DNA of 64,000 nucleotides, taken from positions 2,794,904 to 2,858,903 of the forward strand of contig OZ243935.1 in assembly GCA_965214045.1 (NCBI GenBank), in the 5' to 3' direction. Below, one piece after another: positions 11,693 through 40,546 of the stretch; the first letter of the stretch is position 1; each line of letters starts with the position of its first letter. The stretch is from Candidatus Poribacteria bacterium (GTDB taxonomy: Bacteria; Poribacteria; WGA-4E; WGA-3G). The translations under genes were made by a program, and so were the position numbers. Below the pieces are notes generated by a model. It did not search any database and had not been told where the DNA came from. It saw nothing but the letters and a program-made list of their open reading frames with translations.

Positions 11693-11895
11693 AATGTATT
11701 CTCCAATTCGCTTGTAGGAGCGACTTCTTACTGTATCCTATAGGACTTACGCAGTTGACCCGTTTTCGGCAGTCTTTGGTTCGTAGTAGCGCAATTTTGC
11801 GGCGTACTCGCCCAAATGCGACGTGCATTATTGCGCTTTCTTCGGGAATATTCGCTCAATTTTGGCATGAGAGCCAATTTTGCGTAAGTCCTGTC

Positions 11896-16289: not shown

Positions 16290-17432
16290 TCAATCTCTTT
16301 GAGGATGCGTTAGAAGATGCGAATGAATATCCTCAAGGCTTTCCGCGGTGAGGCTCTTTTCAAAGAGGGCATCGAGCACGTCAGTGTTCTCGATGGCGGA
16401 AATCTCGATGCGTATCGCTTCGGGAACGTTCTGAAACTGGTGTTGTAGGAACTTCAGGAGTGCCGCCTGTTTGGCGCGGGTTTCCCCTTGTTCGATGCCT
16501 TGTTCGATGCCTTGTTGAAGTCCGCGTTGTTCGCTGAGCTCTATAATGGATTCAGCCATGTCTACAATCTCCCTATTTTGCGTATGCGCTTGGGTGAGGA
16601 TATCGAGTAAGTCTTGGTGTTCACCAGCACTTCTGCGGTGGAGGATGAAGAGAAAGAGATACAAGATCGCCCGTGTATACTGATCCGGCGTGTTCGCCTG
16701 CAAGTCGGCAAGCCCTCGTAACGCCTCAAGGAGTGCGGCTCGCATGACAGATGGATCGGAGTTCTCGTGCTTCAGGACAGCCAAAAGCCACCCCAAGGGG
16801 TCCCCCGTTTGGGTCAACGCGTCGGGGTGCGTGGCTTTGACATCAAGCAGCAATGTGTCGAAAGTGGGGACGAACCGATTCAGCACTTCAGGGATGTCCA
16901 TGACAGCGGTCAAAGAGATCGGGACGTTCCATTCTCCTGTCCCGGTGTAAAAGACGATCGGCAAGATCGGGGTCAACTGCCACTCCGTCTGTGGTTGCGA
17001 TGCCGCTATCCACTGCCGGCGCTCCTCCATCCATATCTGCGTCATGTAAGACAGCACCCGCAAGCCCATGGACGGGTCCACGGTGGATTGGTGCTCTATC
17101 AGCAGGTAGATGATCACTTCCGGATGCGTCTGCCTCGGCGACCGAAACGGCACGCTGAAGACCATATCGGATTCTTGGGTCCGCAGTTCATCGGAGATGA
17201 AACTCCGGTTGAGTTGCTCGACCCGCGCAAAGTCAAGTGCCTCGGCGACATCACCGGCAACCATTTTCAGCAACGCTTCGAGATGTTCGCGCTGCCGGAG
17301 CAACCATTTCGCACTTCTATCCGGGAAGTGGTGGCTCGACATCTCCGACAACTCCCGAAGGTCTCGTTCTCTGAACATTTCTTCGCCTCTTCTGAAACGG
17401 ATACACCCTGACACGGGGCGCACGCTTCTCAC
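16290..17432 (-). CDS. Rpn-family recombination-promoting nuclease / putative transposase (PD-(D/E)XK, C-terminal DUF4351)
   Basis: 380 aa. DMVFSVPF...EVIIYLLIEHQSTVDPSMGLRVLSYMTQIW core. C-terminal QQGIEQGIEQGETRAKQAALLKFL repeat typical of DUF4351. Confidence 0.65.
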   Translation of the reverse strand: MRSVRPVSGCIRFRRGEEMFRERDLRELSEMSSHHFPDRSAKWLLRQREHLEALLKMVAGDVAEALDFARVEQLNRSFISDELRTQESDMVFSVPFRSPRQTHPEVIIYLLIEHQSTVDPSMGLRVLSYMTQIWMEERRQWIAASQPQTEWQLTPILPIVFYTGTGEWNVPISLTAVMDIPEVLNRFVPTFDTLLLDVKATHPDALTQTGDPLGWLLAVLKHENSDPSVMRAALLEALRGLADLQANTPDQYTRAILYLFLFILHRRSAGEHQDLLDILTQAHTQNREIVDMAESIIELSEQRGLQQGIEQGIEQGETRAKQAALLKFLQHQFQNVPEAIRIEISAIENTDVLDALFEKSLTAESLEDIHSHLLTHPQRD

Positions 17433-18540: not shown

Positions 18541-21500
18541 TTACTTCAATATTACCATCTTGCGCATCAACGACATCGCGTCGGTTTCCAACTGGTAGAA
18601 ATAAATTCCGCTCGCAACCTGTTCGCCGAGCGCATTCCGACCGTCCCAATACGCCGCACGATCCCGACCCACGTAGTAGCCAGCTGACTGATGACCCAAC
18701 TGCAACGTCCGGATCACAGCACCTTGGGCGTTGTATATCGTGAGACGCACATCGGTATCTGTCGCCAACTCGTAGGGAATCCACGTCTCGGGGTTGAACG
18801 GATTCGGATAGTTCGCCAGCAACTGCGTCTGCTCTGGACGTGCCGTCGCGATGAGCTGCTGCAGGTAAATCAGCGTCCGCATCGCCGCAGGGGACCGATC
18901 CCCCGTCGCAATCAACAGATCGATCTGTTCTTGGAGAACATCTACCTGCACGGCACTCAACTGCATGCCAAGAACCGTCGGCGCACTCGCGGCACCCTCG
19001 TCACGGTTATCGAAAACGAGGAGGAGATCCAGGAAGTTGACCGTGCCGTCGTTGTTGACATCGTATTTCGCGTTGCTCGTTCCCATCGCCTCTGAGACTA
19101 AACCTGCGTCCATGTTATCCACAGTGCCGTCGCCATTAACATCGTATTTTGCGTTATCAGCGGTCGTCGTCGTTGTGGTTGTCGTTGTCGCCGCAGGTGC
19201 CGCGATGCTGTTGCTCAGCACCATGTCACCCGGACTCCCTAACCCGTCAACGACATTCGAGACACCAGACCCGTCAACCGACGAACTCTGGATCCTGCCA
19301 CGCGAGTTCGTCCAGAACAACTTGCCACGCGAACTATCGAGACCGATACCGATCGGCACCGCAAAGATCGAAGCGACATCCGTGATACCGCTACCGTTGA
19401 GATTCGCAGACTTGATCCGACCGCCATTTTCACCCGTCTCTTCCGTCCAGTAGACTTTACCGCCACCGATCACGAGACTCCCCGCAGCATCGGCACCATT
19501 GGAGATATTACGCACCTGTTTTTGACCCTTGAGACTCGCAAACCCGATGCCACCGTTGCTATGCGTCCAATACACATTACCCCCCGCAAGTCCGATATCC
19601 AGGGGACTCGTCAGGTTCTGGAGAACGTTTTCGACGCGTCCGGAACCATCAGCGTTCAGGCTCTGGATTCTGCCCCGTGAGTTCGTCCAGTAGAGGAGAT
19701 TCGCGGTGGTGTCGACGGTAATCCCCATCGGGACCGCCATGATGGCTTTGAGTTCCTTGATGCCGGTGCCGTCGAGATGTGCGCTGTTGATCGTGCCAGC
19801 ACTGTCACCCGTTTTCTCCGTCCAATAGACCGTATCGCCACCGATCGCGAGGCTCAGCGCGTTATCCACAGTCGGTGCGAACCGTTGCACGTCTGTATCC
19901 ACGAGTGCGTAAATCGCGCCATTGTCTACCCAGAGCATCGGTGGACGTTTCGCGGCTGCGGTATGCACAACCGGGCTGATCGTGTCGGAGCCTGTGTCGG
20001 TATCGCGTGTCGTCGGGGTCGCAGCACCACCACTCGCTGTGATCGTAAACGTAACGCGCCGCGTCACACCGCTCGCTTCCGCTTCAACCGTGCTACTTGC
20101 GCTGATCGGGGTATACGGTGCGCGTGCATAGCCGTTAGTATCGGTTTGGAGCGCGATCGCACGTCCGTTGCCGCGTTCTGAAAGCCGTCCCTGTCCCGTG
20201 CGGACTCTGAAGATAACTCTCGTCTCAGCGACGGCATCCCCGTCATCATCAAGAACTCTGACGAGCAGCGGTGCGTCGAGAGCCGTATTCGCTGTGCCGC
20301 TGCGTGTCGATTGACCGGCGATCTGGAGACTACTCGGTTCACTAACAGTTGGTGTGGTTGTTGTCGGTGTTGTCGGTGTTGTCGGGTCCGGTGTGGTATC
20401 AGTTGTCGTGGTAGTTGTTGCACCCGCGGTGAATGTAACCTGCCGGGACGTATACCCCGTGGCACTGACCGTCAAGATATAGGTGCCCGTGGCGGGAACT
20501 GAGACGATTGCCCGACCGCTCCCGGTCGTCAATATCTCACCGCTACCGACGCGAACGCCGCCACGGGTCACTGTAAACGCTACGGTGCGACTCGGCGCAG
20601 AACTTGCCCTTACGAGAATCTGTTGCTGGAGACCTGTCTGGGCACCGTCTTTAGAGACAGTGAGCGTGCCGAGTGCCTGTGGTGCTTCGACAGTCACAGA
20701 AATCTGTCTATCGGTATATCCACTCGCACTGACAGTGAGAATATAATTGGCTGCTGTCCTCGGAAGCGTAATCGTCCGAACCGTGCCGGAACCCGAGACC
20801 GCGCCACCTGCCGATGTGAAACCGGAACTGCCTTGGACCCGAACTGTTGCGGTGCCTGCCCCGACGGTAATATCCTGTGCGGAACCAGGCGCGCCACTGA
20901 GACTCGTTGACGAAACCGAAATGGTGTTGGTTGGCGGTGGTGTGTCGTCCTCATTACCACTACCGCCACTGCCTGCGTTTCCACTGCGATCGCTTCCAGT
21001 ATAGGTAAAGGATATCTCTGCGCCTTTCTTATTCGGATCCTGACCGGAAACAGTAGCTCTCACGACGCTGACACCTTTGTTACTGAGAAATACTCGCGCA
21101 ACTTTGGATCTTGCGAGGAACTTACCGGGGGGAGTTTCGGCCCCATCCGATGTTCTTTCAAATACAGTTCCAGGACCTGAAATAACTTCATATTGAATCA
21201 GAACAGTGTCCGAAGTATCGGTCCCTGTCAGATCAAAAAAATGATCTATCCGATAAGGTTCTGTTCCATGATATTTATCATCGTCTGGAGCATCAATACC
21301 CGTAACATTCTTATTCTCGTCCACGACATAAAGCGTAAACTCAATATAAGCTCGTTGCGAAGGAACTGTAGTCCACGGTGTGTCTTCTAAAGGGGTAGCA
21401 TCTGTGATTCTGACCTTATACGTTCCTGTTGTATCAGCCCCACCTGGAGTACATACTAAAGTGACCGACCTTGGAAGACCGTTAGGGTCAATTATAGGAT

Positions 21501-22257
21501 CTTCCTTTAGGTCTGTAATGGGGGTCTGGAAACTTGAAGCCTTCAGTTTGAAGGTCATCGCAGAGTCTGCCGAACCATCCTTGTTAACACTAATCGTGAT
21601 TCGCTCTTGATTGTAATGGTATCGTTTAGCGTCGAGTACGCGGGGTGCAAATTCCTCTTGTTCTATTCTTACTCGACTCCCTGCCTGAGCAGTGACCGGT
21701 CTGACATCATTCTCATCATTAAAATCACCATCTGCGGGGCTACTATTATCTACCCCCTCAACAGCATCTCTGTAGTAGTAAAGGGCAAGTCCGCTATTGT
21801 CGTAAGCATACTTACTGCTATCAGCAAATATGGCTGTGCTGTCTGGGGTTATATAATCACTGCCACGCTTTGCTCGTATAGGAGAAGCGTGACTCGTCGG
21901 AGCACGATCCTGTAAGGCACTGATGGTGGCAGTAGTCTCAGTATTTCGACGATCTACACCGTTCTTTGATGTGACAAGATACCCTTGGGCATCAATTCGC
22001 CGTGCCTCACCAGTTGTACCATCATCAATTAGCTTGTTATCACTGTTCCTGATAGGCGTGGTATTCGACCGAGTTCCGACAGTAAATGATATCTCAAACG
22101 GCCCGTCTGTTGCTGATTTCGTCTGGAGATCGCCAGATGTCTTCCTTAAAGGTAAGTGTTCTGCTTCTGCAACACCCTGCACACCCAACGCCAATACAAA
22201 TGCCATCAGCAGTCCGATATATCCCTTCCGTGTCAAAAATTGTGTCTTCACAATCAT
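18541..22257 (-). CDS. Giant secreted multidomain surface protein: Ig-like (Big) repeats, T/P-rich linker, YWTD-type beta-propeller repeats, two dockerin-type Ca-binding repeats, T9SS/FlgD-Ig-type C-terminal sorting domain
   Basis: 1238 aa. Signal peptide. Repeated ~90-aa Ig-like units (TGTYILTVSATGYTSRQVTF). Repeated (K/N)(V/L)YWT(D/E/N) blades. AKYDVNGDGTVDNMD and AKYDVNNDGTVNFLD. C-terminus LANYPNPFNPETWIPYEL...IYFYQLE. Confidence 0.7.
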   Translation of the reverse strand: MIVKTQFLTRKGYIGLLMAFVLALGVQGVAEAEHLPLRKTSGDLQTKSATDGPFEISFTVGTRSNTTPIRNSDNKLIDDGTTGEARRIDAQGYLVTSKNGVDRRNTETTATISALQDRAPTSHASPIRAKRGSDYITPDSTAIFADSSKYAYDNSGLALYYYRDAVEGVDNSSPADGDFNDENDVRPVTAQAGSRVRIEQEEFAPRVLDAKRYHYNQERITISVNKDGSADSAMTFKLKASSFQTPITDLKEDPIIDPNGLPRSVTLVCTPGGADTTGTYKVRITDATPLEDTPWTTVPSQRAYIEFTLYVVDENKNVTGIDAPDDDKYHGTEPYRIDHFFDLTGTDTSDTVLIQYEVISGPGTVFERTSDGAETPPGKFLARSKVARVFLSNKGVSVVRATVSGQDPNKKGAEISFTYTGSDRSGNAGSGGSGNEDDTPPPTNTISVSSTSLSGAPGSAQDITVGAGTATVRVQGSSGFTSAGGAVSGSGTVRTITLPRTAANYILTVSASGYTDRQISVTVEAPQALGTLTVSKDGAQTGLQQQILVRASSAPSRTVAFTVTRGGVRVGSGEILTTGSGRAIVSVPATGTYILTVSATGYTSRQVTFTAGATTTTTTDTTPDPTTPTTPTTTTPTVSEPSSLQIAGQSTRSGTANTALDAPLLVRVLDDDGDAVAETRVIFRVRTGQGRLSERGNGRAIALQTDTNGYARAPYTPISASSTVEAEASGVTRRVTFTITASGGAATPTTRDTDTGSDTISPVVHTAAAKRPPMLWVDNGAIYALVDTDVQRFAPTVDNALSLAIGGDTVYWTEKTGDSAGTINSAHLDGTGIKELKAIMAVPMGITVDTTANLLYWTNSRGRIQSLNADGSGRVENVLQNLTSPLDIGLAGGNVYWTHSNGGIGFASLKGQKQVRNISNGADAAGSLVIGGGKVYWTEETGENGGRIKSANLNGSGITDVASIFAVPIGIGLDSSRGKLFWTNSRGRIQSSSVDGSGVSNVVDGLGSPGDMVLSNSIAAPAATTTTTTTTTADNAKYDVNGDGTVDNMDAGLVSEAMGTSNAKYDVNNDGTVNFLDLLLVFDNRDEGAASAPTVLGMQLSAVQVDVLQEQIDLLIATGDRSPAAMRTLIYLQQLIATARPEQTQLLANYPNPFNPETWIPYELATDTDVRLTIYNAQGAVIRTLQLGHQSAGYYVGRDRAAYWDGRNALGEQVASGIYFYQLETDAMSLMRKMVILK

Positions 22258-22403
22258 ATCTCCTCTTTGATCTGTGGTATTCAGTTGTTGTCTGTTCTAA
22301 CGTGTGTTACTTGACAGCATCACTTGGCATCAACCTGTCTCAAAGGTTTGGATAGGACTCGGAGTAGATCACCCCGAGTTGAGACCCTATCCGCCAAGTA
22401 TCA

Positions 22404-22502: not shown

Positions 22503-25500
22503 CTACTCATTGGACGTTTTGAGTTCACCCCACGTGGCGGTGAGTTTGCCAGCAGCACCGATATGCCCTCTGAGGCGTGTGCCGTGGGTCAGCGTCTGAC
22601 GATTCCCATCGAGGGACACGTCTTCAATTTGGTAGTAGTATACGACATTGGGTTGCGCAGTGCTATCCGTGTAGGTATAGAACTGCTTCTCTGATGTTGT
22701 GCCAGCACCGGCGACCATTGTGGCATTGATGACTTGGAACTGTCCGTCGCGTTGCTGTGAACGCTTGATGAAGAATCCAGCGTTGTTCAGCTCTGACTGT
22801 GTGGACCAGGTAATCACCACTTGACCGGTCTCTGCGTTGCGCACCGGACGGAAGTGTGAGAGTTCAACGGGGAGTGCGCCACCGGCTCTGAAGCCCGGTG
22901 TACCGACATCGTTCATCGCACCGTAGTAACTGCTCGCCCGGACGTGTGTCGCTTGTGCGAAACTCGTATCGGAGGCGAGTGCCCAACTCTCCATCATTGC
23001 GCCGTCTTCTGGCTCCGCAGGACCGATAGAGACCGGAATGTGTCTACGGATAATAGAACTCCGTCCACCTTCATCACTCATCGGCAATGCCCAAGTAGCA
23101 GCACCATCAGCACCGAGGTTGCCTGCCATATCCGTGGCGGCTGTGTGAGCTGCCATGGCTTTCAAGTCAGACGCTTTCGCTGCGGCTTTCTGTGCTGCCG
23201 TTGCGGTTGCGGCGACGACTGTTGCCTTCGGAGCGGGGGGTGCGAGGACGATTTCAAACGCCATATCACTCAAGAGCGAGTAGCGGCGTTTCGTCACACC
23301 TGCGAGAATCAGTTCCGTCTGACCGGCTTGCCAGAGATTCAGAACCTGACCGCTCGCCGCAGGGACGTTATTCCGACCGATTTCCGTGACAACGAGGAGC
23401 GTTGACGGCGACTCATTCTGAGCACTCGGCATAATCTTCGTGCCTTCGGGGATCGTGAACATGATAGACGCACCGACAGAAACATCAGCATCTGCGACTG
23501 CGTTATTCACGGTCAACGTCCATCCGGAGAGATTGACCTCTTCCGTGCGGGAACCGTTGGAAATCTCAATCCACTGTGGCAGTGTGCCACCACCTGCGAA
23601 CATCACTTCACTGACATAGATAGCACCGACTGCTGGGACCATGACAGACGTATCCGCGGCTTTTGCGGCTGCGGCTGCATCTGCAGCGGCTTTCGCTTTT
23701 GCGGCGGCTTCCATCGCTGCCATTTCAGCAGGAGTCGTCTGATGGGCGGCTCCTGGTGTTCCGACACGGATACCTTGGATACCTAACTTGAAGTTGGCAC
23801 CCGGCGGCGTAGACGCCGTCCAACTCGAAGCCATTGTGCCGTCCGCGTATGCGCTTGTCGTCGCATCCATCACACGGCGCATCGAGACAATCGGCGTAAC
23901 AGGACCTGGAGCAACAGTGATCTCAATGTCTTCTTTTACTTCGAGAGGCGTGCCACTCGTCCCGCTTTGACCTTTACCCAGGATAGACCAATAAACATCC
24001 CTTGCGACTGCTGGGGCTGTGCCACCCGCAGCGACTGCGGCTGCAGCTATTGATGCTGCTGATGTTTTCGTACCGACACGGTCCTGGAGAACACCATCGG
24101 TATAGGACGCAGGCGGTGTCTCATTCGCGGCATAGAACCACAACTTCCATTTATTTTCACCAACAGCGATGGCGGTCGCAGTGCTATTCGCGATCTCTAT
24201 CCATTGACTCTTGGTAACAGGATTCAGACTCGAATCCGTGCCCCACATAATCTCACTGATATGGGCACTGCCTGCCGCCGTGCCATCATAAGAAACGAGA
24301 TCAATCGTCCCATTATTCAGAAGGAACGACTCTAAGTTCGGAACACTTCCAGAACCTCTGACATTGAATAACAATTGCGCATCTGACTGCTTGGCAGCGA
24401 TGTTCTCATCGTCTTTTTCATGAGAGGCGTTGATACCCGACCCAGCTTTATCTCTCGTCAGCAAGTAATAGCCATTCGCAGGAATCATCGCAGCTTCTTC
24501 GTGCCGTAAGGAAAGCGGAGTTCCGGCTGGTTTCGCTGCTGCTGCTGCTGCTGGATTGTTGGTCTTGACCATCAGAACATCTCTGCCTGCGACGAGAGCA
24601 CTGTCAGCCGCCCGAATATACATTTCTTGAGCACTACCAGCAGGAGGTTTCTCCATACCCGCAAAATCCGTGACTTTGATGGTAACATCCTTGGCACCTT
24701 CTGCCTTTGTTTTCAGAGTGACGAGATAGAGATGGACCATACCATCTCGCCAACTCGGAACACTCGCTTCCATCTCAATTCCGGCCTGGTTCGCATCCTG
24801 GGTTCTGTTAATAACCATTGGTGGCGTTACTGGCGATGCTAACTTAACAACCGAAGCAACAGTTGCGTTATCTCCAACGTCAATGAGGTCTTTGACAGCC
24901 TCTTTCGGTTTTTCGCTCAACAGCACATGAACCATAAATTCAGCGGAAGTGACCTCTGCGTAGGGTTCACCAACCCTTGCGATCTTCAAAACATCTGGTA
25001 GCAATGTGGGAGGGGTATTTTCAGCACCTGGATTTGCTGGATATAGATTAATAGTCGCCTTTAATTCGTTGCTCTTCTTATCCTTCAGTCTAATCGTGTC
25101 AGTAGCACCAATAGCCTTATCGGCTATGAACAACTCTAGAGAAGTTGTGCCTGCGTCGATAGTGTTAGGTGCAAACGTAAGGCTAACCATCTTAGTTTTA
25201 GAACCATCAACAGTAGGGGCCAATTTCTCAATGAATCCATTTTCACCATAAGCATTGACCGTAATTTCATCCGTAACCGTCACTGCCTCGGCGAAGTTGA
25301 GCGTCAACTCAAGTTCTGCCGTTGCATCGAACTCAAGTTGCAAGCCATCGGCATTGCCTATATCATTCATCATGTCAAGTGACACGCCGAAGTCCCCCGC
25401 TATTGCGGAAGGGGCGACAAAAGCCAAAGCAAGTATAGTGATTAAACTCATTAACGAAACTGTCATTTTCTTCGACAACATTCGTTTAATCTCCTTGTTC

Positions 25501-25526
25501 TTATGTGGAATAAAATTTTGAAACAT
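22503..25526 (-). CDS. Large secreted protein with two lamin-tail-domain-like (LTD) modules and a C-terminal beta-sandwich domain ending ...KLTATWGELKTSNE
   Basis: 1007 aa. Signal peptide. LTD-like blocks AHISEIMWG...QWIEIANST and IYVSEVMFAGGGTLPQWIEISNGSRTEEVNLSGWTL. C-terminal LPVELSHF...VITWSTQSELNNAGFFIKRS module. Confidence 0.55.
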   Translation of the reverse strand: MFQNFIPHKNKEIKRMLSKKMTVSLMSLITILALAFVAPSAIAGDFGVSLDMMNDIGNADGLQLEFDATAELELTLNFAEAVTVTDEITVNAYGENGFIEKLAPTVDGSKTKMVSLTFAPNTIDAGTTSLELFIADKAIGATDTIRLKDKKSNELKATINLYPANPGAENTPPTLLPDVLKIARVGEPYAEVTSAEFMVHVLLSEKPKEAVKDLIDVGDNATVASVVKLASPVTPPMVINRTQDANQAGIEMEASVPSWRDGMVHLYLVTLKTKAEGAKDVTIKVTDFAGMEKPPAGSAQEMYIRAADSALVAGRDVLMVKTNNPAAAAAAKPAGTPLSLRHEEAAMIPANGYYLLTRDKAGSGINASHEKDDENIAAKQSDAQLLFNVRGSGSVPNLESFLLNNGTIDLVSYDGTAAGSAHISEIMWGTDSSLNPVTKSQWIEIANSTATAIAVGENKWKLWFYAANETPPASYTDGVLQDRVGTKTSAASIAAAAVAAGGTAPAVARDVYWSILGKGQSGTSGTPLEVKEDIEITVAPGPVTPIVSMRRVMDATTSAYADGTMASSWTASTPPGANFKLGIQGIRVGTPGAAHQTTPAEMAAMEAAAKAKAAADAAAAAKAADTSVMVPAVGAIYVSEVMFAGGGTLPQWIEISNGSRTEEVNLSGWTLTVNNAVADADVSVGASIMFTIPEGTKIMPSAQNESPSTLLVVTEIGRNNVPAASGQVLNLWQAGQTELILAGVTKRRYSLLSDMAFEIVLAPPAPKATVVAATATAAQKAAAKASDLKAMAAHTAATDMAGNLGADGAATWALPMSDEGGRSSIIRRHIPVSIGPAEPEDGAMMESWALASDTSFAQATHVRASSYYGAMNDVGTPGFRAGGALPVELSHFRPVRNAETGQVVITWSTQSELNNAGFFIKRSQQRDGQFQVINATMVAGAGTTSEKQFYTYTDSTAQPNVVYYYQIEDVSLDGNRQTLTHGTRLRGHIGAAGKLTATWGELKTSNE

Positions 25527-25931
25527 AAACCTAAAACCTGTAAGAGTTGTTAGTTCTTAACCGATGCCTAACACCTCTTCTGAAATGAAGAACGGATCCA
25601 GGGATTGTAAATCCATTCACATTTGAACTTAACCTTTTATACCTTTTGTTAATTTCGGCAGAAGATCGGTCAGATTTTAAGGCATCCGCAGGAGTCAGAA
25701 ATGTCGCGAGCGGGAGATATACCTTAATATATACAGGATTTACGCAAAATTACAGAATTACGCGTACCACCACGCGGAGGGCGCGGTTTGATGAAAGGCC
25801 CCCACCAGGGAATTACGTAAGTCTTATAGATGGAGCGGCAGGAAGTGTTGAAGTTTCAATGAATATTAGGAGTCCTGATGTAGAAGGATTTCGCGTTTTT
25901 TGGTGAGTTATACATTTTTTTGTATTTTAAT

Positions 25932-25960
25932 TTGACAAAATGCGTTAAAAAGTGTATAAT
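25932..25960 (+). promoter_or_regulatory. Consensus sigma70 promoter, copy 1 (TTGACA-17 bp-TATAAT)
   Basis: TTGACA at 25932-25937, 17-bp spacer, TATAAT at 25955-25960. Confidence 0.55.
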
Positions 25961-26053
25961 TAATAAAATAAAGGGTTGAAACGCGAGTTTTTCACAATTT
26001 TCACTGTAAATTTCGCGTTTTTTGGTGAGTTATACATTTTTTTGTATTTTAAT

Positions 26054-26082
26054 TTGACAAAATGCGTTAAAGAGTGTATAAT
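26054..26082 (+). promoter_or_regulatory. Consensus sigma70 promoter, copy 2 (TTGACA-17 bp-TATAAT), proximal to the small HTH gene
   Basis: TTGACA at 26054-26059, TATAAT at 26077-26082. AAGGA RBS 9 nt before the ATG at 26141. Confidence 0.6.
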
Positions 26083-26140
26083 TAATAGCATAAAGGGTTG
26101 AAGCGCGATGTTTTTCACACAATTACGTAAGGAATGCACG

Positions 26141-26434
26141 ATGCGCCGCTTAAACACAAAGACGATTTTGACTGCCTGTGAGATGTCCTTCAACGGGAAA
26201 CCTGACCATGAAATAGCGGCTGATTTAGGTGCCTCTGTTTCAGCAGTCTCCCGGTGGCGGAAGCATGAGATATGGCAAGAGTTTGAGAAAGAGCTCATAT
26301 CGACACATAAGCAGTCGTTGTTAGAAGCGCATCGGTCAACAACCCTTGAAGAGAGCACACCTTCAGGTGTGCGAAACATGCAAAAGGTATATTTTGTTAG
26401 GTTCGGCAGTCCCTTCCCTCTCTTGGCTGCGTAA
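26141..26434 (+). CDS. Small helix-turn-helix protein (terminase-small-subunit / HTH_23-like N-terminus)
   Basis: 97 aa from the ATG at 26141 (the track ORF starts at 26108). ILTACEMSFNGKPDHEIAADLGASVSAVSRWRK is a typical HTH. Good RBS. Confidence 0.4.
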   Translation: MRRLNTKTILTACEMSFNGKPDHEIAADLGASVSAVSRWRKHEIWQEFEKELISTHKQSLLEAHRSTTLEESTPSGVRNMQKVYFVRFGSPFPLLAA

Positions 26435-26742
26435 ATTTTTCGCTCTTTCCTTTTTCAACGGGGCCTCACCCCTGATTCCCCTAATTTTCCCAAATATCCG
26501 CGTTCTCTACGATTCTGACAATCACCAAAATATTTATAGTAAAACCCACGATTAAGTTTACACGCTGTAATGTGCCGACCGTAGGTTTTCATTAGAAATT
26601 GCGTAAGTCCTATCTAAAACGCGTTTGCGTAAATCTATTGAATATGCCATAATAGATGTATTTTATTACCTATCCCCCGTCAAAGCCCCATGCTTTAGCT
26701 TGCGGGATGTAGACGGCGTTTAGGGGTGTCGTAAAAATAAAC

Positions 26743-26772
26743 TTGACAAAAACTCTAAAAATCCGGTATAAT
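26743..26772 (+). promoter_or_regulatory. Near-consensus sigma70 promoter (TTGACA-18 bp-TATAAT) with no convincing ORF downstream
   Basis: TTGACA at 26743-26748, TATAAT at 26767-26772. Downstream are paired stems (GGATAGG...CCTATCC, AACGG...CCGTT). Confidence 0.5.
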
Positions 26773-27102
26773 TATATTAATCGTTGGATAGGAAAGCAAG
26801 CACCTGCAAACCTTGCGGGTGTCCTATCCGCCTACTTGCTTGGGTTGAACGATGAACGGTTATTCCCGTTAATACCACATTCGGATTATACATTTTGGGT
26901 TATGATCCCCAGTTCGTTTCGTGATGAGTTCTGCCTCGCTTTATAGGATTGTGGCGGTGTTCCCTCCACAACTGCGAAAATGTCAGAACACTATAGAATC
27001 AAAGTATCGGTATATCTTAGGGAGTTTATCAAGATATTCCGTAGTCGGACGTTGGCTGGTCCCACAATCCTTTTGCAGATTGTGTCACCCGAGAAGTTTC
27101 TA

Positions 27103-27145
27103 TTCACGAAAAAAGCCCGATGAAACTTCACAAAAATCGGGGAGC
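27103..27145 (-). terminator. Rho-independent terminator on the minus strand (CCCCGAT-loop-ATCGGG followed by CTTTTTTC)
   Basis: Read on the minus strand the hairpin is followed by a T6 run. It lies 370 bp downstream of the PhyH paralog, or it ends an unannotated minus-strand sRNA. Confidence 0.45.
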
Positions 27146-27511
27146 GTGCTATAAGCCGTAAAAGTGTACCCACCGACTGAAACAGGATCGGCAGTTGAAG
27201 AAACCCCCTTGCTTCAGCTGGGGGAGCAGTCATGTGATGTCTTCAGCGGTAAGGTTGAATGAAGATTAAAGAATCAGATAATCGACGGCAATAAATGGTT
27301 TCCCTACTACGAACAGTTCGCTTGTAGTAGTACTATTTATAGCATGTAGACTTACGCACGATGCTCTTTTGTAGCGCAAACTGTTAGTTTGCGTCTCTGC
27401 GCGTATTACTTTTTTAGGGGTTCGTAATCTAACAGATCGGATTACGCTCAAAACTGCGGAAGTCCTGTTCTTATTGTAAAATCTCATCTACCAATTAGGG
27501 GATAAAATTCC

Positions 27512-28249
27512 TTAATTTTCTTCAGCTATAACATAAGGACGGTTGCCGATGGATGGCGGCTTCAACATCCGTTTCTGTTGCTCCGTTAACCCGTCGTATT
27601 TACTGATGTCGTAGTAGTTACCCGCCCACGCGGAGTGTCCAGGACTATATTTATAGAGCAATGACCGGCGTTGATGTTTTGCTGTCCACGGCATCGTCCC
27701 GTGAACGAGTGCTTCCGTGAAGAAGAGCACGTCTCCTGCTTCCAGTGCCGGTTGGACGACGTAGTGCGTTGAACGTTCAAATCGACGGACTTCCGATGGG
27801 ATTTCCCGGAGAAAGTTGCTCTTATGACTTCCCGGAATACAAGCGAAACCGCCCGCGCCTTCCGGTGCATCTGCCAAATTATAGGTCATCACGCATAACC
27901 CATTCCGCATAACCCCGTCTCGGTATTTGTACCAGTGATCGCCTTCGGGACCACCCGGTCTACCGCCATCTTCACCGCCATGTAATCCACCGCGTCCTTG
28001 TCCCGCTTCCAAGAAGATGGCGTAGTCGTGGTCGAGACGAACGTGCGGACCCAATAAGTCTATGAGATACGGCAGGATCTTCGGATGATCGATCAATCTC
28101 CTAAACGGATCACCCCAGAGACTTGGCGGTCCTTGACGTTCTGTATTATCGATAATCTCGTTCATTTCAGCGACTTCATCATCGGTCAAGACGTTCTTTA
28201 TGATAAGGTAGCCTTCAAGGTCTACTGTAAATTTTTCTTCACCAGTCAT
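27512..28249 (-). CDS. Phytanoyl-CoA dioxygenase family protein (tandem paralog 1)
   Basis: 245 aa. PhyH pattern (HVRLDHDY...IPGSHK...HGTMPW). ~80% identical to 28445..29179. Confidence 0.65.
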   Translation of the reverse strand: MTGEEKFTVDLEGYLIIKNVLTDDEVAEMNEIIDNTERQGPPSLWGDPFRRLIDHPKILPYLIDLLGPHVRLDHDYAIFLEAGQGRGGLHGGEDGGRPGGPEGDHWYKYRDGVMRNGLCVMTYNLADAPEGAGGFACIPGSHKSNFLREIPSEVRRFERSTHYVVQPALEAGDVLFFTEALVHGTMPWTAKHQRRSLLYKYSPGHSAWAGNYYDISKYDGLTEQQKRMLKPPSIGNRPYVIAEEN

Positions 28250-31308: not shown

Positions 31309-31506
31309 TGTTGCTTATTCCCAAGCCCCAGCGGGGCAGCATGTCTGTAGCAACGCGTCCGACCGCACGTCTAAAGCCCCAGCGGGGCGACATGTCTGTA
31401 GCAGCGCGACCAGTCCTATTTTCCCAAGCCCCAGCGGGGCGGCATGTCTGTAGCAGCGCGATCAGTCCTATTTCCCAAGCCCCAGCGGGGCGACATGTCT
31501 GTAGCT
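31309..31506. repeat. Tandem array (3.5-4 units, period ~51-52 bp) of AAGCCCCAGCGGGGCGACATGTCTGTAGCAGCGCG with ~16-bp TCCTATTTCCC-type linkers
   Basis: Copies at 31323, 31374, 31426 and 31477. Linkers are nearly identical to each other, so this is not CRISPR-like. Same family as 5994-6086. Confidence 0.8.
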
Positions 31507-31806: not shown

Positions 31807-32892
31807 TCAACTTAACGCTTGTTGTAGACTTGCTTCAACCCCTTCAGCTGGTAATAGGCGTATCATTTCATCTGCCATCGCTTTTCCACCTACTTCTCCT
31901 GTTCTTCCTTCGTATTCACCATCCTTGCGCCAATCTATTTCTGATGCAGCTTTTACTAAACGTCTGACGTTGTCCCAATTCATACCTATTTCCTCGTTGT
32001 AGCTCCGCGAGAAAATTTGTGCCCCGGTATACGACCAAGCTATCAGACCTGTGAGCTCAAGGAGTTTGTACTCAAAAGCGTTTCTGCGACTGCCCTTTAT
32101 TTCAGGATCATCGAGTTTTTCAATATCTGCCCATTCTTCATGAAGATGGTCAGCGATTATCGTCCAGAGCTCGGACATGTACTCGGTTTTCTGATCAACA
32201 TCTAAATCTTGAACTCCTCCGAGTCCAAATAGGCGCGTAACTTGCTTTGCCACACTATGGAGAGCAAATAGATGTGTACGCTGCATTGATGTCTTTGTAA
32301 TCCTTCCTTTAAAGGGACTGTCATCTCGTTCATTAAGTTCCCATCCGACTTGTGCTTCTGGTTTCCCTTCAAGGTAAGCTGTTAGAGGTTTGGGTACTCC
32401 TTTTTGGTTGTCGTTGACATTGATGAATTCTTTTGCTTCTTGTTCAGGAGTGAGATTTGGAAGCAGAATGAAGGAAACTTCGCGTACATCACTGTCAGAT
32501 TCATACAGCTCTACAAAGCCACCAAGACGATGTTGTCCATCAAGGATAGCGGCTTTTCCTCGAATGATAAGTTTTCCAGTATTTTGTCCTTCCCCATTTG
32601 GTTTGAATTGCCAGTTACCACGTCCGGAGAGCAGAACGGGTGGAACTATACTATCGGGGTATTCTGTGAGAAACTTCGCGACCTGTTTCATACGAGTTAG
32701 TGAACCAGGTCTCTGGTAACCCTCTTCCACGATTTCATTAAGACAAGTTTTACGACTGGATTCAATAACGGGGACAAATGTCACGTTCTTAACCTTATCA
32801 GATTTAATTGTTCCAAATAAGTACTTCTGATTGCCTTGAGTCTTCAGAATGACTCCTTTTATTTCCCCAATTGTATTCGTTTTATTAGTCAT
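31807..32892 (-). CDS. DGQHR-domain protein (DndB-like)
   Basis: 361 aa. Contains AILDGQHRLGG, the signature of the DndB/DGQHR family. Last gene of the minus-strand defense cluster. Confidence 0.7.
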   Translation of the reverse strand: MTNKTNTIGEIKGVILKTQGNQKYLFGTIKSDKVKNVTFVPVIESSRKTCLNEIVEEGYQRPGSLTRMKQVAKFLTEYPDSIVPPVLLSGRGNWQFKPNGEGQNTGKLIIRGKAAILDGQHRLGGFVELYESDSDVREVSFILLPNLTPEQEAKEFINVNDNQKGVPKPLTAYLEGKPEAQVGWELNERDDSPFKGRITKTSMQRTHLFALHSVAKQVTRLFGLGGVQDLDVDQKTEYMSELWTIIADHLHEEWADIEKLDDPEIKGSRRNAFEYKLLELTGLIAWSYTGAQIFSRSYNEEIGMNWDNVRRLVKAASEIDWRKDGEYEGRTGEVGGKAMADEMIRLLPAEGVEASLQQALS

Positions 32893-32936
32893 TGATTAAT
32901 TCTCCTCAATGCAAGTGCGGTGTCGGTTTAACGGAA

Positions 32937-33227
32937 TCATTCTAACGTTTCAACCTCGTAAGGTGCCATCTGTGTCGCATCCGTTTTGCGGACGCGAAAT
33001 TGGATGTCCTTAAAGAGTCCATCATTATTTTTTCTCAAGCTTTCAAGGGATTCCCCTAAGGAACGTGCTGATATGTAGAAGATATACTCAAGGTCATTGC
33101 TGATTTTTTTTACGTGAAGAATAGGGGCATACCCCTTAAATGTCAAAACAACATCCGGTTCAGAGATAATTTCCAATTCTATCCATCCGGTCCCGACTTT
33201 TAAAGGCGGTGGTAATTCTTGAGGCAT
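32937..33227 (-). CDS. Hypothetical small protein (96 aa) within the defense cluster
   Basis: ORF only. 8-bp gap to the upstream gene. No recognisable motif. Confidence 0.3.
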   Translation of the reverse strand: MPQELPPPLKVGTGWIELEIISEPDVVLTFKGYAPILHVKKISNDLEYIFYISARSLGESLESLRKNNDGLFKDIQFRVRKTDATQMAPYEVETLE

Positions 33228-33235
33228 AGTTTCTC

Positions 33236-33751
33236 CTATAGATCATGCAGTGCTTCGGCAAGCTGATTTTGAATCGCTTGTTCCTCTGTAACAGGTTCGG
33301 ATTGCAGTAGGTCGTCAAGGGCATCAGAAAGGTTCCATATCGGGCTTTCGGAGCCTTCGTTTAGCATTTTCACGATGTGGGGGACACCTGCAGCTGCCAG
33401 ACCGTTGGCGATGTCCATCATGCGACGCGGCTTAAGGACAACCTCTAAGTTTCCTTCAACGGCTATCGCAATTAACATGATCGCTTGCGCCTGCCAGCCA
33501 TCCGTGTCAAAAATATTACCGCTAATGATGCTAACAGTGTCCTTTTTCTTTTTTGTTAAATGCATCGGTTTAAGATTCTGACGCGCTGCCAGCGAGAGTC
33601 CGGCAAACCAGAGATCCACCTTTCGTGGAAACGGAGTCTTAGCGGCTTTCGCACCTGCTCCCGTTTGGCAGTAATGATCGTAGTCATCCCGCTGTATAGT
33701 AGGTGATATGATTTGCATATTGCGAAAAGGATTATCGTAGTGTTGTGCCAT
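33236..33751 (-). CDS. Hypothetical protein (171 aa) within the defense cluster
   Basis: ORF tightly packed between the DndD-like and the 96-aa gene (9-bp and 8-bp gaps). No recognisable motif. Confidence 0.35.
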   Translation of the reverse strand: MAQHYDNPFRNMQIISPTIQRDDYDHYCQTGAGAKAAKTPFPRKVDLWFAGLSLAARQNLKPMHLTKKKKDTVSIISGNIFDTDGWQAQAIMLIAIAVEGNLEVVLKPRRMMDIANGLAAAGVPHIVKMLNEGSESPIWNLSDALDDLLQSEPVTEEQAIQNQLAEALHDL

Positions 33752-33760
33752 AGTGATCTC

Positions 33761-35884: not shown

Positions 35885-36126
35885 TGCGTAACCTCTGTCG
35901 TTGGGTTATCTGTATCACGTTTCCTCGCGAGAAAATCGCCAGCCTTATGGCATGCTTGGTTTACCTGTTTTTGAATGGTTGTTCTTTGTGCTTGATGTTC
36001 TCTCTCGGCACTGAGGATTTCAACGATTGCCTCAAGCACTTTTTTCCTGTAGCCGTCGCATCTTTCCTCAATAGATTCACATTCATTGAGAATCATCTTT
36101 ACCATTTTTTCCTTGTTATATGACAT
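35881..36126 (-). CDS. Hypothetical small protein (81 aa), translationally coupled (ATGA overlap) to the DndD-like ATPase
   Basis: ORF only. 4-bp overlap with the downstream gene start. Confidence 0.3.
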   Translation of the reverse strand: MSYNKEKMVKMILNECESIEERCDGYRKKVLEAIVEILSAEREHQAQRTTIQKQVNQACHKAGDFLARKRDTDNPTTEVTQ

Positions 36127-36137
36127 AATCTCCTCCG

Positions 36138-38282: not shown

Positions 38283-38318
38283 ATTGGTTTACAGGTATAG
38301 AAATTGATGTGATTAAAA

Positions 38319-39572: not shown

Positions 39573-39621
39573 GGGTCAGCCCTACTCCGATTGCATAAAT
39601 AGATTCTGTGCAGTAGAAATA

Positions 39622-40473: not shown

Positions 40474-40546
40474 GTCTCCTCCTACGAGTCAGTTGTGCAG
40501 AGGCGTATAAAACACGAGGCACAACCGAACAGGGTATGCTACGGTG

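What the first reader, a model, noticed from the sequence alone, without database searches (positions are those of the whole stretch)
26440..27510. ~1.1-kb gap without credible ORFs containing a consensus promoter, covarying stems and a minus-strand terminator: candidate ncRNA locus
A TTGACA-18-TATAAT promoter at 26743-26772 on the plus strand is followed by a GGATAGG...CCTATCC helix and an AACGG-ttattc-CCGTT hairpin. Only 67-80-aa ORFs with no RBS occur.

On the minus strand, 27103-27145 is a clean intrinsic terminator. A CCCCC-loop-GGGGG hairpin lies at 27206-27230. The region also carries copies of the TTATAGTAAAAC and TGCGTAAGTCCTAT words.
Basis: seen in the sequence. Interest (0 to 1): 0.5.

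Follow-up and report, generated by a model that had tools for sequence, protein, structure and literature searches.

The report
Transposon remnant with knotted leader RNA
The "empty" kilobase is debris of mobile elements in a sponge-symbiont (Poribacteria) genome. Its perfect promoter fires into a 74-nt pseudoknotted RNA that belongs to a recurring RNA motif found in no Rfam family.

Summary
The promoter, the GGATAGG/CCTATCC helix, the hairpins and the repeated words are all present. The minus-strand "clean terminator" is weak. No protein is encoded.

The helix is part of a 74-nt three-way junction with a 7-bp pseudoknot (26780-26853) that starts at the promoter's +1. I found 13 further distinct copies. 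They lie elsewhere in this window (22322-22399, minus strand), in other Poribacteria MAGs, in other metagenome contigs and in two viral contigs. Every variable helix covaries: 90.9% of cells pair against 72.7% in shuffles (0/500). Rfam 15 has no match.

In most lineages the motif begins 4-7 nt after the -10 box of a strong promoter. In one MAG it is the leader of a tnpB gene inside an IS200/IS605 element. The window copy shares that element's left-end hairpin box and has a similar right-end hairpin, but no tnpB.

So about 26662-27235 is best read as a protein-less (PATE-like) IS605-family derivative that still makes a structured leader RNA. The rest of the gap is an IS630 transposase fragment, REP-like hairpins and the flank of an invertible promoter-HTH cassette.

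The motif's function is inferred, not shown: a cis-acting 5' leader for RNA stability or translation gating.

The parts
26405..26477 (.). Conserved outer flank of the invertible promoter-HTH cassette. It lies just past the right inverted repeat (26372-26404). The homology-free part of the gap begins after it.
   Evidence: 26381-26448 matches L002 4332-4265, and 26381-26477 matches L003 4524-4427, both in reverse orientation. The inverted repeat is pair I1.
26534..26545 (+). TTATAGTAAAAC word. It also occurs at 29327 and 31119, always in intergenic DNA. Its role is unknown.
   Evidence: 5 matches with at most 1 mismatch, against 0.11 expected.
26561..26656 (-). 5' fragment of an IS630-family transposase gene. 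Only the first 30 codons remain (MAYSIDLRKRVLD...), and it contains the TGCGTAAGTCCTAT and TGCGTAAATC words.
   Evidence: 26612-26656 is 93% identical to L008 3834-3878. The L008 ORFs match HTH_Tnp_IS630 (1.9e-26) and DDE_3 (1.2e-31). BLASTP gives 15/30 identities, E = 1e-7. tblastn finds only residues 1-30.
26662..27235 (+). Proposed protein-less (PATE-like) derivative of an IS200/IS605-family tnpB element. Both boundaries are approximate, +/- 10 nt.
   Evidence: The left-end box and right-end hairpin resemble those of the tnpB element in L004. Similarity to L008 stops at 26656. No tnpB remnant is detectable.
26677..26716 (+). Left-end bipartite hairpin. Outer stem CCGTC/GACGG; inner imperfect palindrome CCCCATGC-TTTA-GCTTGCGGG.
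   Evidence: The pattern GTCAAAR-N14-44-TAGACRSCG matches once in the window (0 expected) and otherwise only in L004, L005 and L122. Alignment to the L004 left end scores 25 against 14.8 +/- 2.5 in shuffles (1/500). Predicted fold is -15.0 kcal/mol.
26743..26772 (+). Consensus sigma-70 promoter TTGACA-18-TATAAT. The predicted start site is about 26779-26780.
   Evidence: The promoter is kept in the homologues L122 (TTGACT-17-TATCCT with TG) and L073 (TTGATT-17-TATCAT with TG).
26780..26853 (+). 74-nt leader RNA motif: a three-way junction with a pseudoknot.
- P1: 26780-85 with 26848-53
- P2: 26786-92 with 26823-29
- X: 26794-26800, pairing with X' 26835-41 (the pseudoknot)
- P2a: 26801-09 with 26813-21
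- P3: 26831-33 with 26842-44
   Evidence: A model built only from the other window copy and its L008 orthologue finds this copy at 22.9 bits, E = 3.5e-4. Model R2 gives 61.4 bits; that model includes this sequence, so the score is not independent. MFE z-score is -3.9.
26855..26870 (+). Hairpin 2 (AACGG-ttattc-CCGTT).
   Evidence: L073 and L122 carry a hairpin of different sequence at the same place (ATGA-taaaa-TCAT).
26871..26954 (+). Second conserved domain of the A-type transcript. AATACCACAUUCGG (26871-84) is predicted to pair with GGAUUGUGG (about 26946-54), enclosing a hairpin whose stem covaries with L122 (UGGG/CCCA against GCAAG/CUUGC).
   Evidence: Alignments A6 and A8. Both the L122 and L073 contigs end inside this region.
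27103..27145 (-). Weak terminator-like hairpin: 6-bp stem, 14-nt loop, U-run.
   Evidence: Energy -8.8 kcal/mol, z = +0.38. Not listed by the terminator scan.
27204..27224 (+). Right-end-like imperfect palindrome CCCCCTTGC-TTCA-GCTGGGGG. It resembles this element's own left-end palindrome and the L004 right-end hairpin.
   Evidence: Alignment to the L004 right end scores 24 against 14.6 +/- 2.6 in shuffles (3/500).
27368..27393 (.). REP-like hairpin word (tgtagCGCAAACtgttaGTTTGCG), also found in other Poribacteria loci.
   Evidence: Matches of 96% to L011 and L017 and about 83% to L002.
22322..22399 (-). Second copy of the motif in the window. It lies in the 5' UTR of the 1238-aa secreted protein gene (18541-22257, minus strand), just after the terminator of the LTD gene.
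   Evidence: Orthologous copies occur in L008, L009 and L003.

Best explanation
The interval is a patchwork of mobile-element debris at a synteny breakpoint in a Candidatus Poribacteria genome.

Its core, about 26662-27235, is a protein-less derivative of an IS200/IS605-family (tnpB-type) insertion sequence. It keeps four things:
- the element's left-end hairpin box;
- a consensus sigma-70 promoter;
- a 74-nt leader RNA;
- a right-end-like hairpin.

The leader folds from the first transcribed nucleotides into a three-way junction. P1 closes the fold. P2 is GGAUAGG/CCUAUCC and carries a variable apical hairpin, P2a. P3 is a short hairpin. The 7-nt loop of P3 pairs with the 7 nt between P2 and P2a, forming a pseudoknot.

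This fold belongs to a recurrent RNA motif that matches no Rfam family. The motif sits at +1 of strong promoters in IS605-type elements, in phage- or plasmid-like contigs, and in some chromosomal 5' UTRs.

What is shown: the structure, its recurrence, its link to promoters, and its homology to the ends of a tnpB element.

What is inferred: the leader acts in cis on its own transcript. A compact knotted 5' end would protect the RNA from decay that starts at the 5' end. Where a start codon follows within 4-11 nt (L004 tnpB, L018), it would also limit ribosome access, as the IS200 5'-UTR stem-loop does. In the window copy no ORF follows, so the product is a structured non-coding transcript of at least about 175 nt.
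For: ORGANISM AND CONTEXT
- The related loci are all Candidatus Poribacteria MAGs.
- Synteny with L001 ends at 26441, and synteny with L017 ends at 27479.

STRUCTURE
- 14 distinct copies in 5 lineages were found.
- Cognate X:X' pairs form 6.8 of 7 base pairs, against 3.4 of 7 for non-cognate combinations. Every pseudoknot, P1 and P2a position shows 2-5 pair types, apart from the invariant outermost P2a pair.
- The count of structure pairs on 10 sequences: 90.9% of cells paired against 72.7 +/- 1.7 in shuffles. 18 pairs change on both sides. The covariation score is 0.473 against 0.150. No shuffle of 500 reaches any of these values. Sliding the 3' partners gives 31-49% paired.
- At one orthologous position the pseudoknot differs with full compensation: L003 has GUAUCAC/GUGAUAC, while the window, L008 and L009 have GUCUCAA/UUGAGAC.
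- The P2a loop tolerates insertions of about 115 nt (L009) and about 250 nt (L003).
- The fold is strand-specific. The reverse strand scores 16 bits against 61, and G-U pairs are present.

PROMOTER LINK
- The motif starts 4-7 nt after the -10 box in the window copy, L004/L005, L018 and L030, and 3-4 nt after it in L073, L122, L121 and both L156 copies.

INSERTION-SEQUENCE LINK
- In L004 the order is left-end hairpin, promoter, motif, tnpB, right-end hairpin. The tnpB protein matches OrfB_IS605 (2e-21) and Cas12f1-like_TNB (2e-16) and is 43% identical to annotated TnpB proteins.
- The window copy shares the left-end box and a right-end-like hairpin.
- The window copy is homologous to L122 and L073 from the left end to at least 26952. 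L122 carries Poribacteria REP words.

NEGATIVE RESULTS AND PUBLISHED PRECEDENT
- No protein homologue and no Rfam match were found.
- Protein-less PATE-like IS605 elements are described in PMC10055086.
- The IS200 left end, with a terminator hairpin followed by a 5'-UTR stem-loop that blocks translation, is described in PMC4513863.
Against: - No expression data exist, so the transcription start site is only predicted.
- The window carries no tnpB or tnpA.
- No full-length element of the window's type was recovered, because both homologous contigs end inside it.
- The element boundaries, the target motif and any empty site are undefined.
- Similarity to the L004 left and right ends is modest (1/500 and 3/500 shuffles).
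- The internal 350 nt shows no similarity to L004 beyond chance.
- The closest annotated TnpB elements (Geoalkalibacter, Trichormus, Nostoc; about 40% identity) lack the motif. The motif is therefore not a general feature of IS605 elements.
- The copy at 22322-22399 and its orthologues have no good promoter in the right register and lie 45-60 nt upstream of a normal ribosome-binding site. Translation gating cannot be the universal role.
- The invariance of P2 is partly an artefact, because most copies were found with a pattern that contains P2.
Confidence: 0.5

Rival explanations
1. A free-standing, trans-acting small RNA gene. The promoter makes a stable structured sRNA that regulates other mRNAs or binds a protein, as the processed 5' end of the IS200 tnpA transcript does in Salmonella.
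For: A perfect promoter is present, no ORF follows, and the structure is stable. An RNA domain conserved with L122 continues to about 26954. Precedent: the IS200 5'tnpA sRNA (bioRxiv 10.1101/2024.06.26.600842, listed).
Against: The same motif is the immediate leader of ORFs in L004 and L018 and a 5' UTR in four orthologous loci. That pattern fits a cis role. No conserved single-stranded seed region is shared across lineages. No intrinsic terminator defines a short sRNA.
Confidence: 0.2
2. An expression cassette for a guide RNA. The protein-less element uses its left-end promoter to transcribe through to the right end. This would produce an omega-RNA-like scaffold plus a guide taken from the flanking DNA (about 27236 onward), for a TnpB encoded elsewhere in the genome.
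For: PATE-like elements are reported to often encode omega RNAs that a TnpB encoded elsewhere must act on in trans (PMC10055086). A right-end-like hairpin lies at 27204-27224, downstream of and in the same orientation as the promoter. No plus-strand terminator lies between them.
Against: No known omega-RNA family matches here or in L004. 26854-27205 has no similarity to the 3' end of the L004 tnpB. The fold of 26779-27260 is not unusual (z = -1.46). No tnpB is present in the window.
Confidence: 0.15
3. An element that modifies RNA polymerase (processive antitermination, like HK022 put RNA or EAR). It would sit just after strong promoters so that transcription reads through downstream terminators.
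For: The motif lies directly downstream of strong promoters at the head of operons in phage- or plasmid-like contigs and upstream of a 3.7-kb gene.
Against: The architecture does not resemble put or EAR. That comparison rests on my own knowledge, but Rfam, which holds EAR, gave no match. In the window the second copy lies after a terminator, not before one. No downstream terminators were identified.
Confidence: 0.08
4. A riboswitch or other ligand-sensing leader. The junction and pseudoknot would form a binding pocket, and P1 would be the switching helix next to the start codon.
For: The fold is a compact junction with a pseudoknot, like several riboswitch aptamers. P2 and the U before its 3' strand are invariant in 13 of 14 copies. 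P1 abuts the start codon in L004 and L018.
Against: The downstream genes have nothing in common: tnpB, small membrane proteins, a secreted dockerin protein, a CRISPR array, or nothing. Almost every nucleotide is base-paired, and few conserved unpaired positions remain. P2 invariance is biased by how the copies were found.
Confidence: 0.06
5. A single-stranded DNA structure used in transposition (recognised by TnpA) rather than an RNA.
For: IS200/IS605 elements move as single-stranded DNA and use top-strand hairpins. The motif lies near the left end, and the fold is strand-specific.
Against: The fold starts at the predicted +1 of strong promoters in most lineages. It also occurs where no IS ends are seen: in orthologous 5' UTRs and at the head of viral operons. 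A separate left-end hairpin upstream already fits the TnpA-site role.
Confidence: 0.06

Closest known systems
IS200 left end: terminator hairpin plus a 5'-UTR stem-loop, and the processed 5'tnpA structured RNA
   Same: It belongs to the same transposon superfamily. The order is the same: an end hairpin, then a promoter, then a highly structured leader just before the element's gene. The IS200 leader represses translation (PMC4513863). Its 5' end also persists as a structured small RNA (bioRxiv 10.1101/2024.06.26.600842).
   Different: The IS200 promoter is weak, whereas this one is a perfect consensus. The IS200 leader is a simple stem-loop that hides a strong Shine-Dalgarno sequence. Here the fold is a three-way junction with a pseudoknot, and no clear Shine-Dalgarno sequence is hidden. 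The gene served in L004 is tnpB, not tnpA. There is no sequence or Rfam relationship.
PATEs (palindrome-associated transposable elements): protein-less IS200/IS605 derivatives
   Same: It is about 570 bp long, has no ORF, and carries similar imperfect palindromes near both ends. It is related to a tnpB-carrying element and would depend on TnpA supplied in trans (PMC10055086).
   Different: Mobility is not shown. Boundaries, target motif and copy number in this genome are unknown. An internal consensus promoter with a structured 5' leader was not mentioned in the passages I read about PATEs.
TnpB omega RNA (reRNA) and the Rfam IS605-orfB / RAGATH-18 motifs
   Same: It is a structured non-coding RNA encoded by an IS605-family element.
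   Different: Omega RNAs overlap the 3' end of tnpB and the right end. This motif is at the left end, 5' of tnpB. No Rfam match was found in the window or in L004.
5'-terminal mRNA stabilisers and viral exoribonuclease-resistant RNAs (xrRNAs)
   Same: It is a compact three-way junction with a pseudoknot of about 75 nt at the extreme 5' end of a transcript. Flaviviral xrRNAs also block bacterial RNase J1 (PMC5760640, listed).
   Different: There is no sequence similarity, and the helix order differs. In xrRNAs the pseudoknots involve the 5' end and a 3' tail. Nuclease resistance has not been tested. This is an analogy, not a claim of membership.
Riboswitch aptamers with a junction plus a loop-to-internal-loop pseudoknot (e.g. 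THF-I, SAM-I)
   Same: The general design is shared: a closing P1, a multi-helix junction, and a hairpin loop that docks into an internal loop.
   Different: Rfam gives no match. The downstream genes are not consistent. There are almost no conserved unpaired nucleotides.

Membership tests
Any Rfam 15 RNA family | Covariance-model score at or near the family's gathering threshold | tested here: not met
   The whole window gave 0 hits at gathering thresholds. 25900-27700 at E <= 10 gave only four chance-level hits elsewhere. L004 2300-4600 gave 0. Six loci carrying motif copies gave 0 hits over the motif.
The new leader motif (three-way junction with pseudoknot) defined here | P1, P2, P2a and P3 in this order, with the 7-nt segment after P2 complementary to the P3 loop | tested here: met
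   26780-26853 has 6/6, 7/7, 9/9, 3/3 and 7/7 paired positions. A model built without this sequence finds it at E = 3.5e-4.
The new leader motif (three-way junction with pseudoknot) defined here | Starts within a few nucleotides of a promoter's predicted +1 | tested here: met
   The -10 box ends at 26772 and P1 starts at 26780. The same spacing is seen in the other lineages. The start site itself has not been measured.
IS200/IS605 family, non-autonomous (PATE-like) element | Subterminal imperfect palindromes at the left and right ends that resemble each other | tested here: met
   Left end CCCCATGC-TTTA-GCTTGCGGG (26686-26706) and right end CCCCCTTGC-TTCA-GCTGGGGG (27204-27224) share the apical TGC-TTNA-GCT and a T-T mismatch. 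This comparison was made by eye and has no significance test.
IS200/IS605 family, non-autonomous (PATE-like) element | Ends homologous to those of an element that carries tnpB or tnpA | tested here: met
   The left-end box is shared with the L004/L005 tnpB element and with L122. Alignment scores exceed shuffles: left end 1/500, right end 3/500.
IS200/IS605 family, non-autonomous (PATE-like) element | No transposase or nuclease gene inside the element | tested here: met
   There are no ORF homologues and no TnpB similarity.
IS200/IS605 family, non-autonomous (PATE-like) element | Defined termini with a conserved target or cleavage motif next to the left end, and no target duplication | tested here: inconclusive
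   Left-end conservation among the window copy, L122, L073 and L004 begins near a TTAT(C/T)T box at about 26663. The 4-5 nt before it differ between copies.
IS200/IS605 family, non-autonomous (PATE-like) element | Evidence of mobility: several copies, or filled and empty sites | tested here: inconclusive
   There is one copy in the window. L122, L073 and L068 carry it at contig ends, which suggests repeated DNA. No empty site was found.
TnpB omega RNA | Overlaps the 3' end of tnpB and the right end, with the guide taken from the flanking DNA | tested here: not met
   The motif lies at the left end, 5' of tnpB in L004. The right-end-proximal part of the window element could not be assessed.
Riboswitch | Consistent association with genes of one pathway | tested here: not met
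   The downstream genes are unrelated to one another.
Riboswitch | Specific ligand binding | not testable with these tools
   This needs in-line probing or calorimetry.
Intrinsic terminator (27103-27145, minus strand) | Stable G+C-rich stem, short loop and a U-run | tested here: inconclusive
   A U-run is present. The stem is only 6 bp with a 14-nt loop, at -8.8 kcal/mol and z = +0.38. The scan missed it.
Exoribonuclease-resistant RNA (xrRNA) | A ring-like fold around the 5' end that halts 5'-to-3' exonucleases | not testable with these tools
   Only the general topology (junction plus pseudoknot at a 5' end) is comparable. No 3D model or nuclease assay was made.

The most novel reading that the evidence does not exclude
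The motif is a new, portable promoter-plus-leader cassette shared by IS605-type transposons, phage- or plasmid-like elements and some chromosomal genes. Its knotted 5' fold would act as a bacterial counterpart of viral exoribonuclease-resistant RNAs, or as another cap-like device at the 5' end. It would protect highly expressed mobile-element transcripts from decay that starts at the 5' end.
Probability: 0.15. Interest if true: 0.8.

Novelty: new variant of a known kind. Interest (0 to 1): 0.55.

Why it matters
The element itself, a decayed insertion sequence, is ordinary. The RNA is not catalogued. It is a 75-nt pseudoknotted three-way junction with very clean covariation, and it recurs at the first transcribed nucleotide of strong promoters. 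It is found in uncultured sponge symbionts, in other metagenome contigs and in viral contigs. In one case it is the leader of a tnpB gene.

If the leader controls RNA stability or translation, it would be a compact natural 5' module. That would matter for understanding how TnpB-type elements and phages control expression, and it could be useful as an expression part.

The result also gives a concrete, testable model for how protein-less IS605 derivatives stay transcriptionally active.

Tried and rejected
SEARCHES THAT FOUND NOTHING USEFUL
- Rfam, at gathering thresholds and in permissive mode, on the window, on L004 and on six loci that carry the motif: no family matched.
- blastn of 25530-27511 against phage and plasmid collections: no match.
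- Exact look-up of window proteins in the contig index: not on record, so the source genome is not in that collection. P0001, the closest HTH homologue, was also not on record.
- All six-frame fragments of the gap as one protein query: no hit. This rejects both a small protein and a decayed-gene reading. The exception is the 30-codon IS630 fragment, which was found through DNA similarity.
- tblastn of the L004 TnpB against the window: nothing.
- A paralogous copy of the gap elsewhere in the window: none.
- Viral-contig scans for copies of the window's type, for the left-end box and for a P3/X' word: none, or only chance hits.
- More Poribacteria DNA fetched through PhyH and HTH homologues (about 330 kb fetched; about 196 kb of it searched with the model): no further copies.
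- Other perfect promoters in the fetched loci: none is followed by the motif.
- The closest annotated TnpB elements: no motif upstream.

METHODS THAT DID NOT WORK WELL
- A first covariance model built from two near-identical sequences was too specific.
- MAFFT could not align the divergent L004 copy. That copy was therefore annotated by hand and counted only.

READINGS CONSIDERED AND DROPPED
- Twister, HDV-like, hammerhead and pistol ribozymes. The helix order differs, there are no conserved unpaired core nucleotides, and Rfam gives no hit.
- Retron RNA (no reverse transcriptase gene nearby).
- tRNA or tmRNA.
- IS110 bridge RNA or IscB omega RNA (no such gene nearby).
Full report
WHAT IS AT THE COORDINATES

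The perfect promoter TTGACA-18-TATAAT is at 26743-26772 on the plus strand. Only three perfect TTGACA-N16-18-TATAAT sites exist in the 64-kb window. All three are on the plus strand within 25932-26772, against 0.02 expected.

The GGATAGG/CCTATCC helix, the AACGG/CCGTT hairpin (26855-26870) and the CCCCC/GGGGG hairpin (27204-27224) are present. So are the two repeated words, and both are over-represented in the window.

The minus-strand "clean terminator" is weak. It has a 6-bp stem, a 14-nt loop and a U-run, and it folds no better than shuffled sequence (z = +0.38).

Only short ORFs occur. I joined all six-frame fragments of at least 35 aa into one query and searched 5.8 billion protein clusters. 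Nothing scored at E <= 1. Rfam gives nothing at gathering or permissive thresholds.

CONTEXT

The window comes from a Candidatus Poribacteria genome (locus titles). The gene-free stretch is really 25527-27511. It lies between a secreted lamin-tail-domain (LTD) protein gene and a PhyH-family dioxygenase gene.

It contains a real, strongly conserved small HTH gene at 26141-26434. That gene has 216 homologues, most of the listed ones 70-95% identical.

Synteny with L001 (LTD gene plus HTH gene) ends at 26441. Synteny with L017 (two PhyH genes plus a 390-aa gene) ends at 27479. The finding therefore sits in about 1 kb of DNA at a synteny breakpoint that neither of these related loci shares.

THE STRUCTURED RNA

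In two other Poribacteria MAGs (L004 and L005), another perfect TTGACA-18-TATAAT promoter is followed by an RNA of the same architecture but different sequence. A descriptor scan then found a second copy in the window itself, at 22322-22399 on the minus strand, and its orthologue in L008.

A covariance model built only from those two sequences finds 26779-26854 as the next-best hit in 95 kb (22.9 bits, E = 3.5e-4).

Pattern scans added further copies:
- two viral contigs, L018 and L030;
- metagenome contigs L068/L121, L073, L122 and two copies in L156.

A second model separates these members (at least 57 bits) from the pattern-selected background (at most 28 bits).

L009 and L003 carry orthologues of the 22322-22399 copy with insertions of about 115 nt and about 250 nt in one apical loop.

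The fold, in window coordinates:
- P1: 26780-85 with 26848-53
- P2: 26786-92 with 26823-29
- P2a: 26801-09 with 26813-21
- P3: 26831-33 with 26842-44
- pseudoknot: X (26794-26800) with X' (26835-41), where X' is the loop of P3

EVIDENCE FOR THE FOLD

Hand-registered helices of 12 sequences pair almost perfectly. Cognate X:X' pairs form 6.8 of 7 base pairs. Non-cognate combinations form 3.4 of 7. All pseudoknot and P1 positions, and three of the four outer P2a positions, show 2-5 pair types.

The pair-counting tool, on a model-derived alignment of 10 sequences, gives:
- 90.9% of cells paired, against 72.7 +/- 1.7 in shuffles;
- 18 pairs with changes on both sides;
- a covariation score of 0.473, against 0.150;
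- no shuffle of 500 reaching any observed value;
- 31-49% paired when the 3' partners are slid by 1-3 columns.

This holds even though three rows are mis-registered by one column in the pseudoknot.

The clearest single case is at one orthologous position. L003 has GUAUCAC/GUGAUAC where the window, L008 and L009 have GUCUCAA/UUGAGAC, with the same P1 and P2.

The fold is specific to the sense strand. The window copy alone folds at -31.5 kcal/mol (z = -3.9), not counting the pseudoknot. No copy matches an Rfam family.

WHERE THE MOTIF SITS

In the window copy, L004/L005, L018 and L030, P1 begins 4-7 nt after the -10 box of a strong promoter. In L073, L122, L121 and both L156 copies it begins 3-4 nt after it. 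The promoters are consensus or TG-extended. The motif therefore starts at or within 1-2 nt of the predicted start site.

The exception is the copy at 22322-22399 and its orthologues. These follow the terminator of the upstream gene and have only a weak promoter in the wrong register.

What follows the motif varies:
- tnpB, 11 nt downstream (L004);
- an 82-aa membrane protein, 4 nt downstream (L018);
- tiny ORFs and then a CRISPR mini-array (L030);
- unrelated ORFs 90-140 nt downstream (L121, L156);
- a 1238-aa secreted protein with a normal ribosome-binding site about 50 nt downstream (second window copy);
- nothing coding (the finding's copy).

This argues against a riboswitch and for a generic module at the 5' end of transcripts.

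THE LINK TO AN INSERTION SEQUENCE

The L004 gene is a TnpB. It matches OrfB_IS605 and Cas12f1-like_TNB and is 43% identical to annotated TnpB proteins.

Around it lie typical IS200/IS605 ends. The left end is a bipartite hairpin, CGGTGTC-AAAA-CCCCCGAATTCATTCGGGGG-ATATA-GACACCG. A similar hairpin, CCCCCGACTTCAGTCGGGGG, follows the stop codon.

The window copy has the same left-end box at 26677-26716. The pattern is unique in the window and otherwise occurs only in L004, L005 and L122. It also has a matching imperfect palindrome at 27204-27224. Alignments to the L004 ends beat shuffles: left end 1/500, right end 3/500.

The window copy is homologous to L122 and L073 from the left-end box through the promoter, the motif, hairpin 2, a conserved AAUACCACAUUCGG and a further hairpin, to at least 26952. 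Both contigs end there. L122 carries Poribacteria REP words.

No tnpB remnant is detectable. I therefore read about 26662-27235 as a protein-less, PATE-like IS605-family derivative. Such elements are described in PMC10055086.

The closest annotated TnpB elements lack the motif. The leader is therefore a lineage-specific acquisition, not a family hallmark.

THE REST OF THE GAP

- 26405-26477 is the conserved flank of the HTH cassette.
- 26561-26656 (minus strand) is the first 30 codons of an IS630-family transposase.
- 27240-27511 holds REP-like hairpins shared with other Poribacteria loci.

HOW IT PROBABLY WORKS

What is shown: the fold, its recurrence, its position at +1 of strong promoters, and its place inside an IS605-type element.

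What is inferred: it acts in cis. A compact knotted 5' end with no single-stranded 5' tail should hinder entry of nucleases that start at the 5' end. This follows from general knowledge of bacterial mRNA decay (reviewed in PMC3997798, listed).

Where a start codon follows within 4-11 nt, the fold should also limit 30S binding. The IS200 5'-UTR stem-loop does this (PMC4513863).

In the window copy the output would be a non-coding RNA of at least about 175 nt. It may read through the right end, which leaves open an omega-RNA-like role. Trans-acting sRNA, antitermination, riboswitch and single-stranded-DNA readings are less well supported.

NOVELTY AND VERDICT

The transposon remnant is ordinary. 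The leader motif matches no Rfam 15 family, and four full-text searches on related topics turned up no description of it. It has unusually clean covariation for so few sequences.

It is wrong about the extent of the RNA and about its independence from a mobile element.

Noticed in passing
window 25625-26404 (inverted repeats 25625-25657 and 26372-26404): The promoter-plus-HTH cassette is inverted relative to its flanks when compared with L002-L010. The inside is collinear, and both flanks are swapped and reversed. L001 has the window's orientation. In the other orientation the perfect promoters and the HTH gene read straight into an LTD-type secreted protein gene (L004 5350-8793). This is a candidate invertible promoter switch. 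No recombinase gene is seen nearby.
   Followed up: partly
window 25888-26114: A 122-bp tandem duplication, 94-95% identical. Each copy carries a perfect TTGACA-17-TATAAT promoter. The first copy is followed by a terminator-like hairpin (25979-26020) and the second drives the HTH gene. The same doubled promoter is conserved in L001, L002 and L191-L200.
   Followed up: partly
L192-L200 (HTH loci): The small HTH gene family often lies about 1 kb downstream of Rep3-type plasmid replication initiator genes (PF01051) and among LTD protein genes. This suggests a plasmid-derived module.
   Followed up: no
window 25402-25540, and several places in L004, L007, L009 and L010: The 5' UTR and signal-peptide-coding start of the LTD gene recurs at 80-91% DNA identity at the starts of several different genes, within and between Poribacteria genomes.
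   Followed up: no
window 11740-11894; also 25733-25827, 26600 and 27455: TGCGTAAGTCCTAT occurs as 14-nt inverted termini of a MITE-like unit of about 155 bp, and as scattered solo copies. The word also overlaps the coding start of the IS630 transposase fragment.
   Followed up: partly
window 31320-31500: Four tandem copies, about 50-60 bp each, of a unit containing AGCCCCAGCGGGGCGACATGTCTGTAGCAGCGCG. They lie in the intergenic region upstream of a DndB-like gene.
   Followed up: no
window 31807-45032: A likely defence island: a DndB-like protein, an AAA_23 ATPase, a GmrSD_N+HNH nuclease, a helicase with a PLD-like domain, and large unannotated ORFs.
   Followed up: no
window 16290-17432 (-); L001 5592-6497; L008 about 3927-4520 (-): The window ORF is a YhgA/Rpn-like putative transposase (Transposase_31). 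An unannotated 301-aa protein follows the HTH gene in L001, where the window has the finding's gap. In L008 a homologue of it is driven by a perfect promoter.
   Followed up: no
L030 7830-7990 (-): The viral contig that carries a motif copy also has a mini CRISPR-like array: about four repeats of cttctaatcgaaccagtttggaattgaaac. It lies about 300 nt downstream of the motif and in the same orientation.
   Followed up: no
L003 8345-8605; L009 8440-8560: REP-rich insertions of about 250 nt (L003) and about 115 nt (L009) sit exactly in the apical loop of helix P2a of the motif. The rest of the fold is intact.
   Followed up: partly
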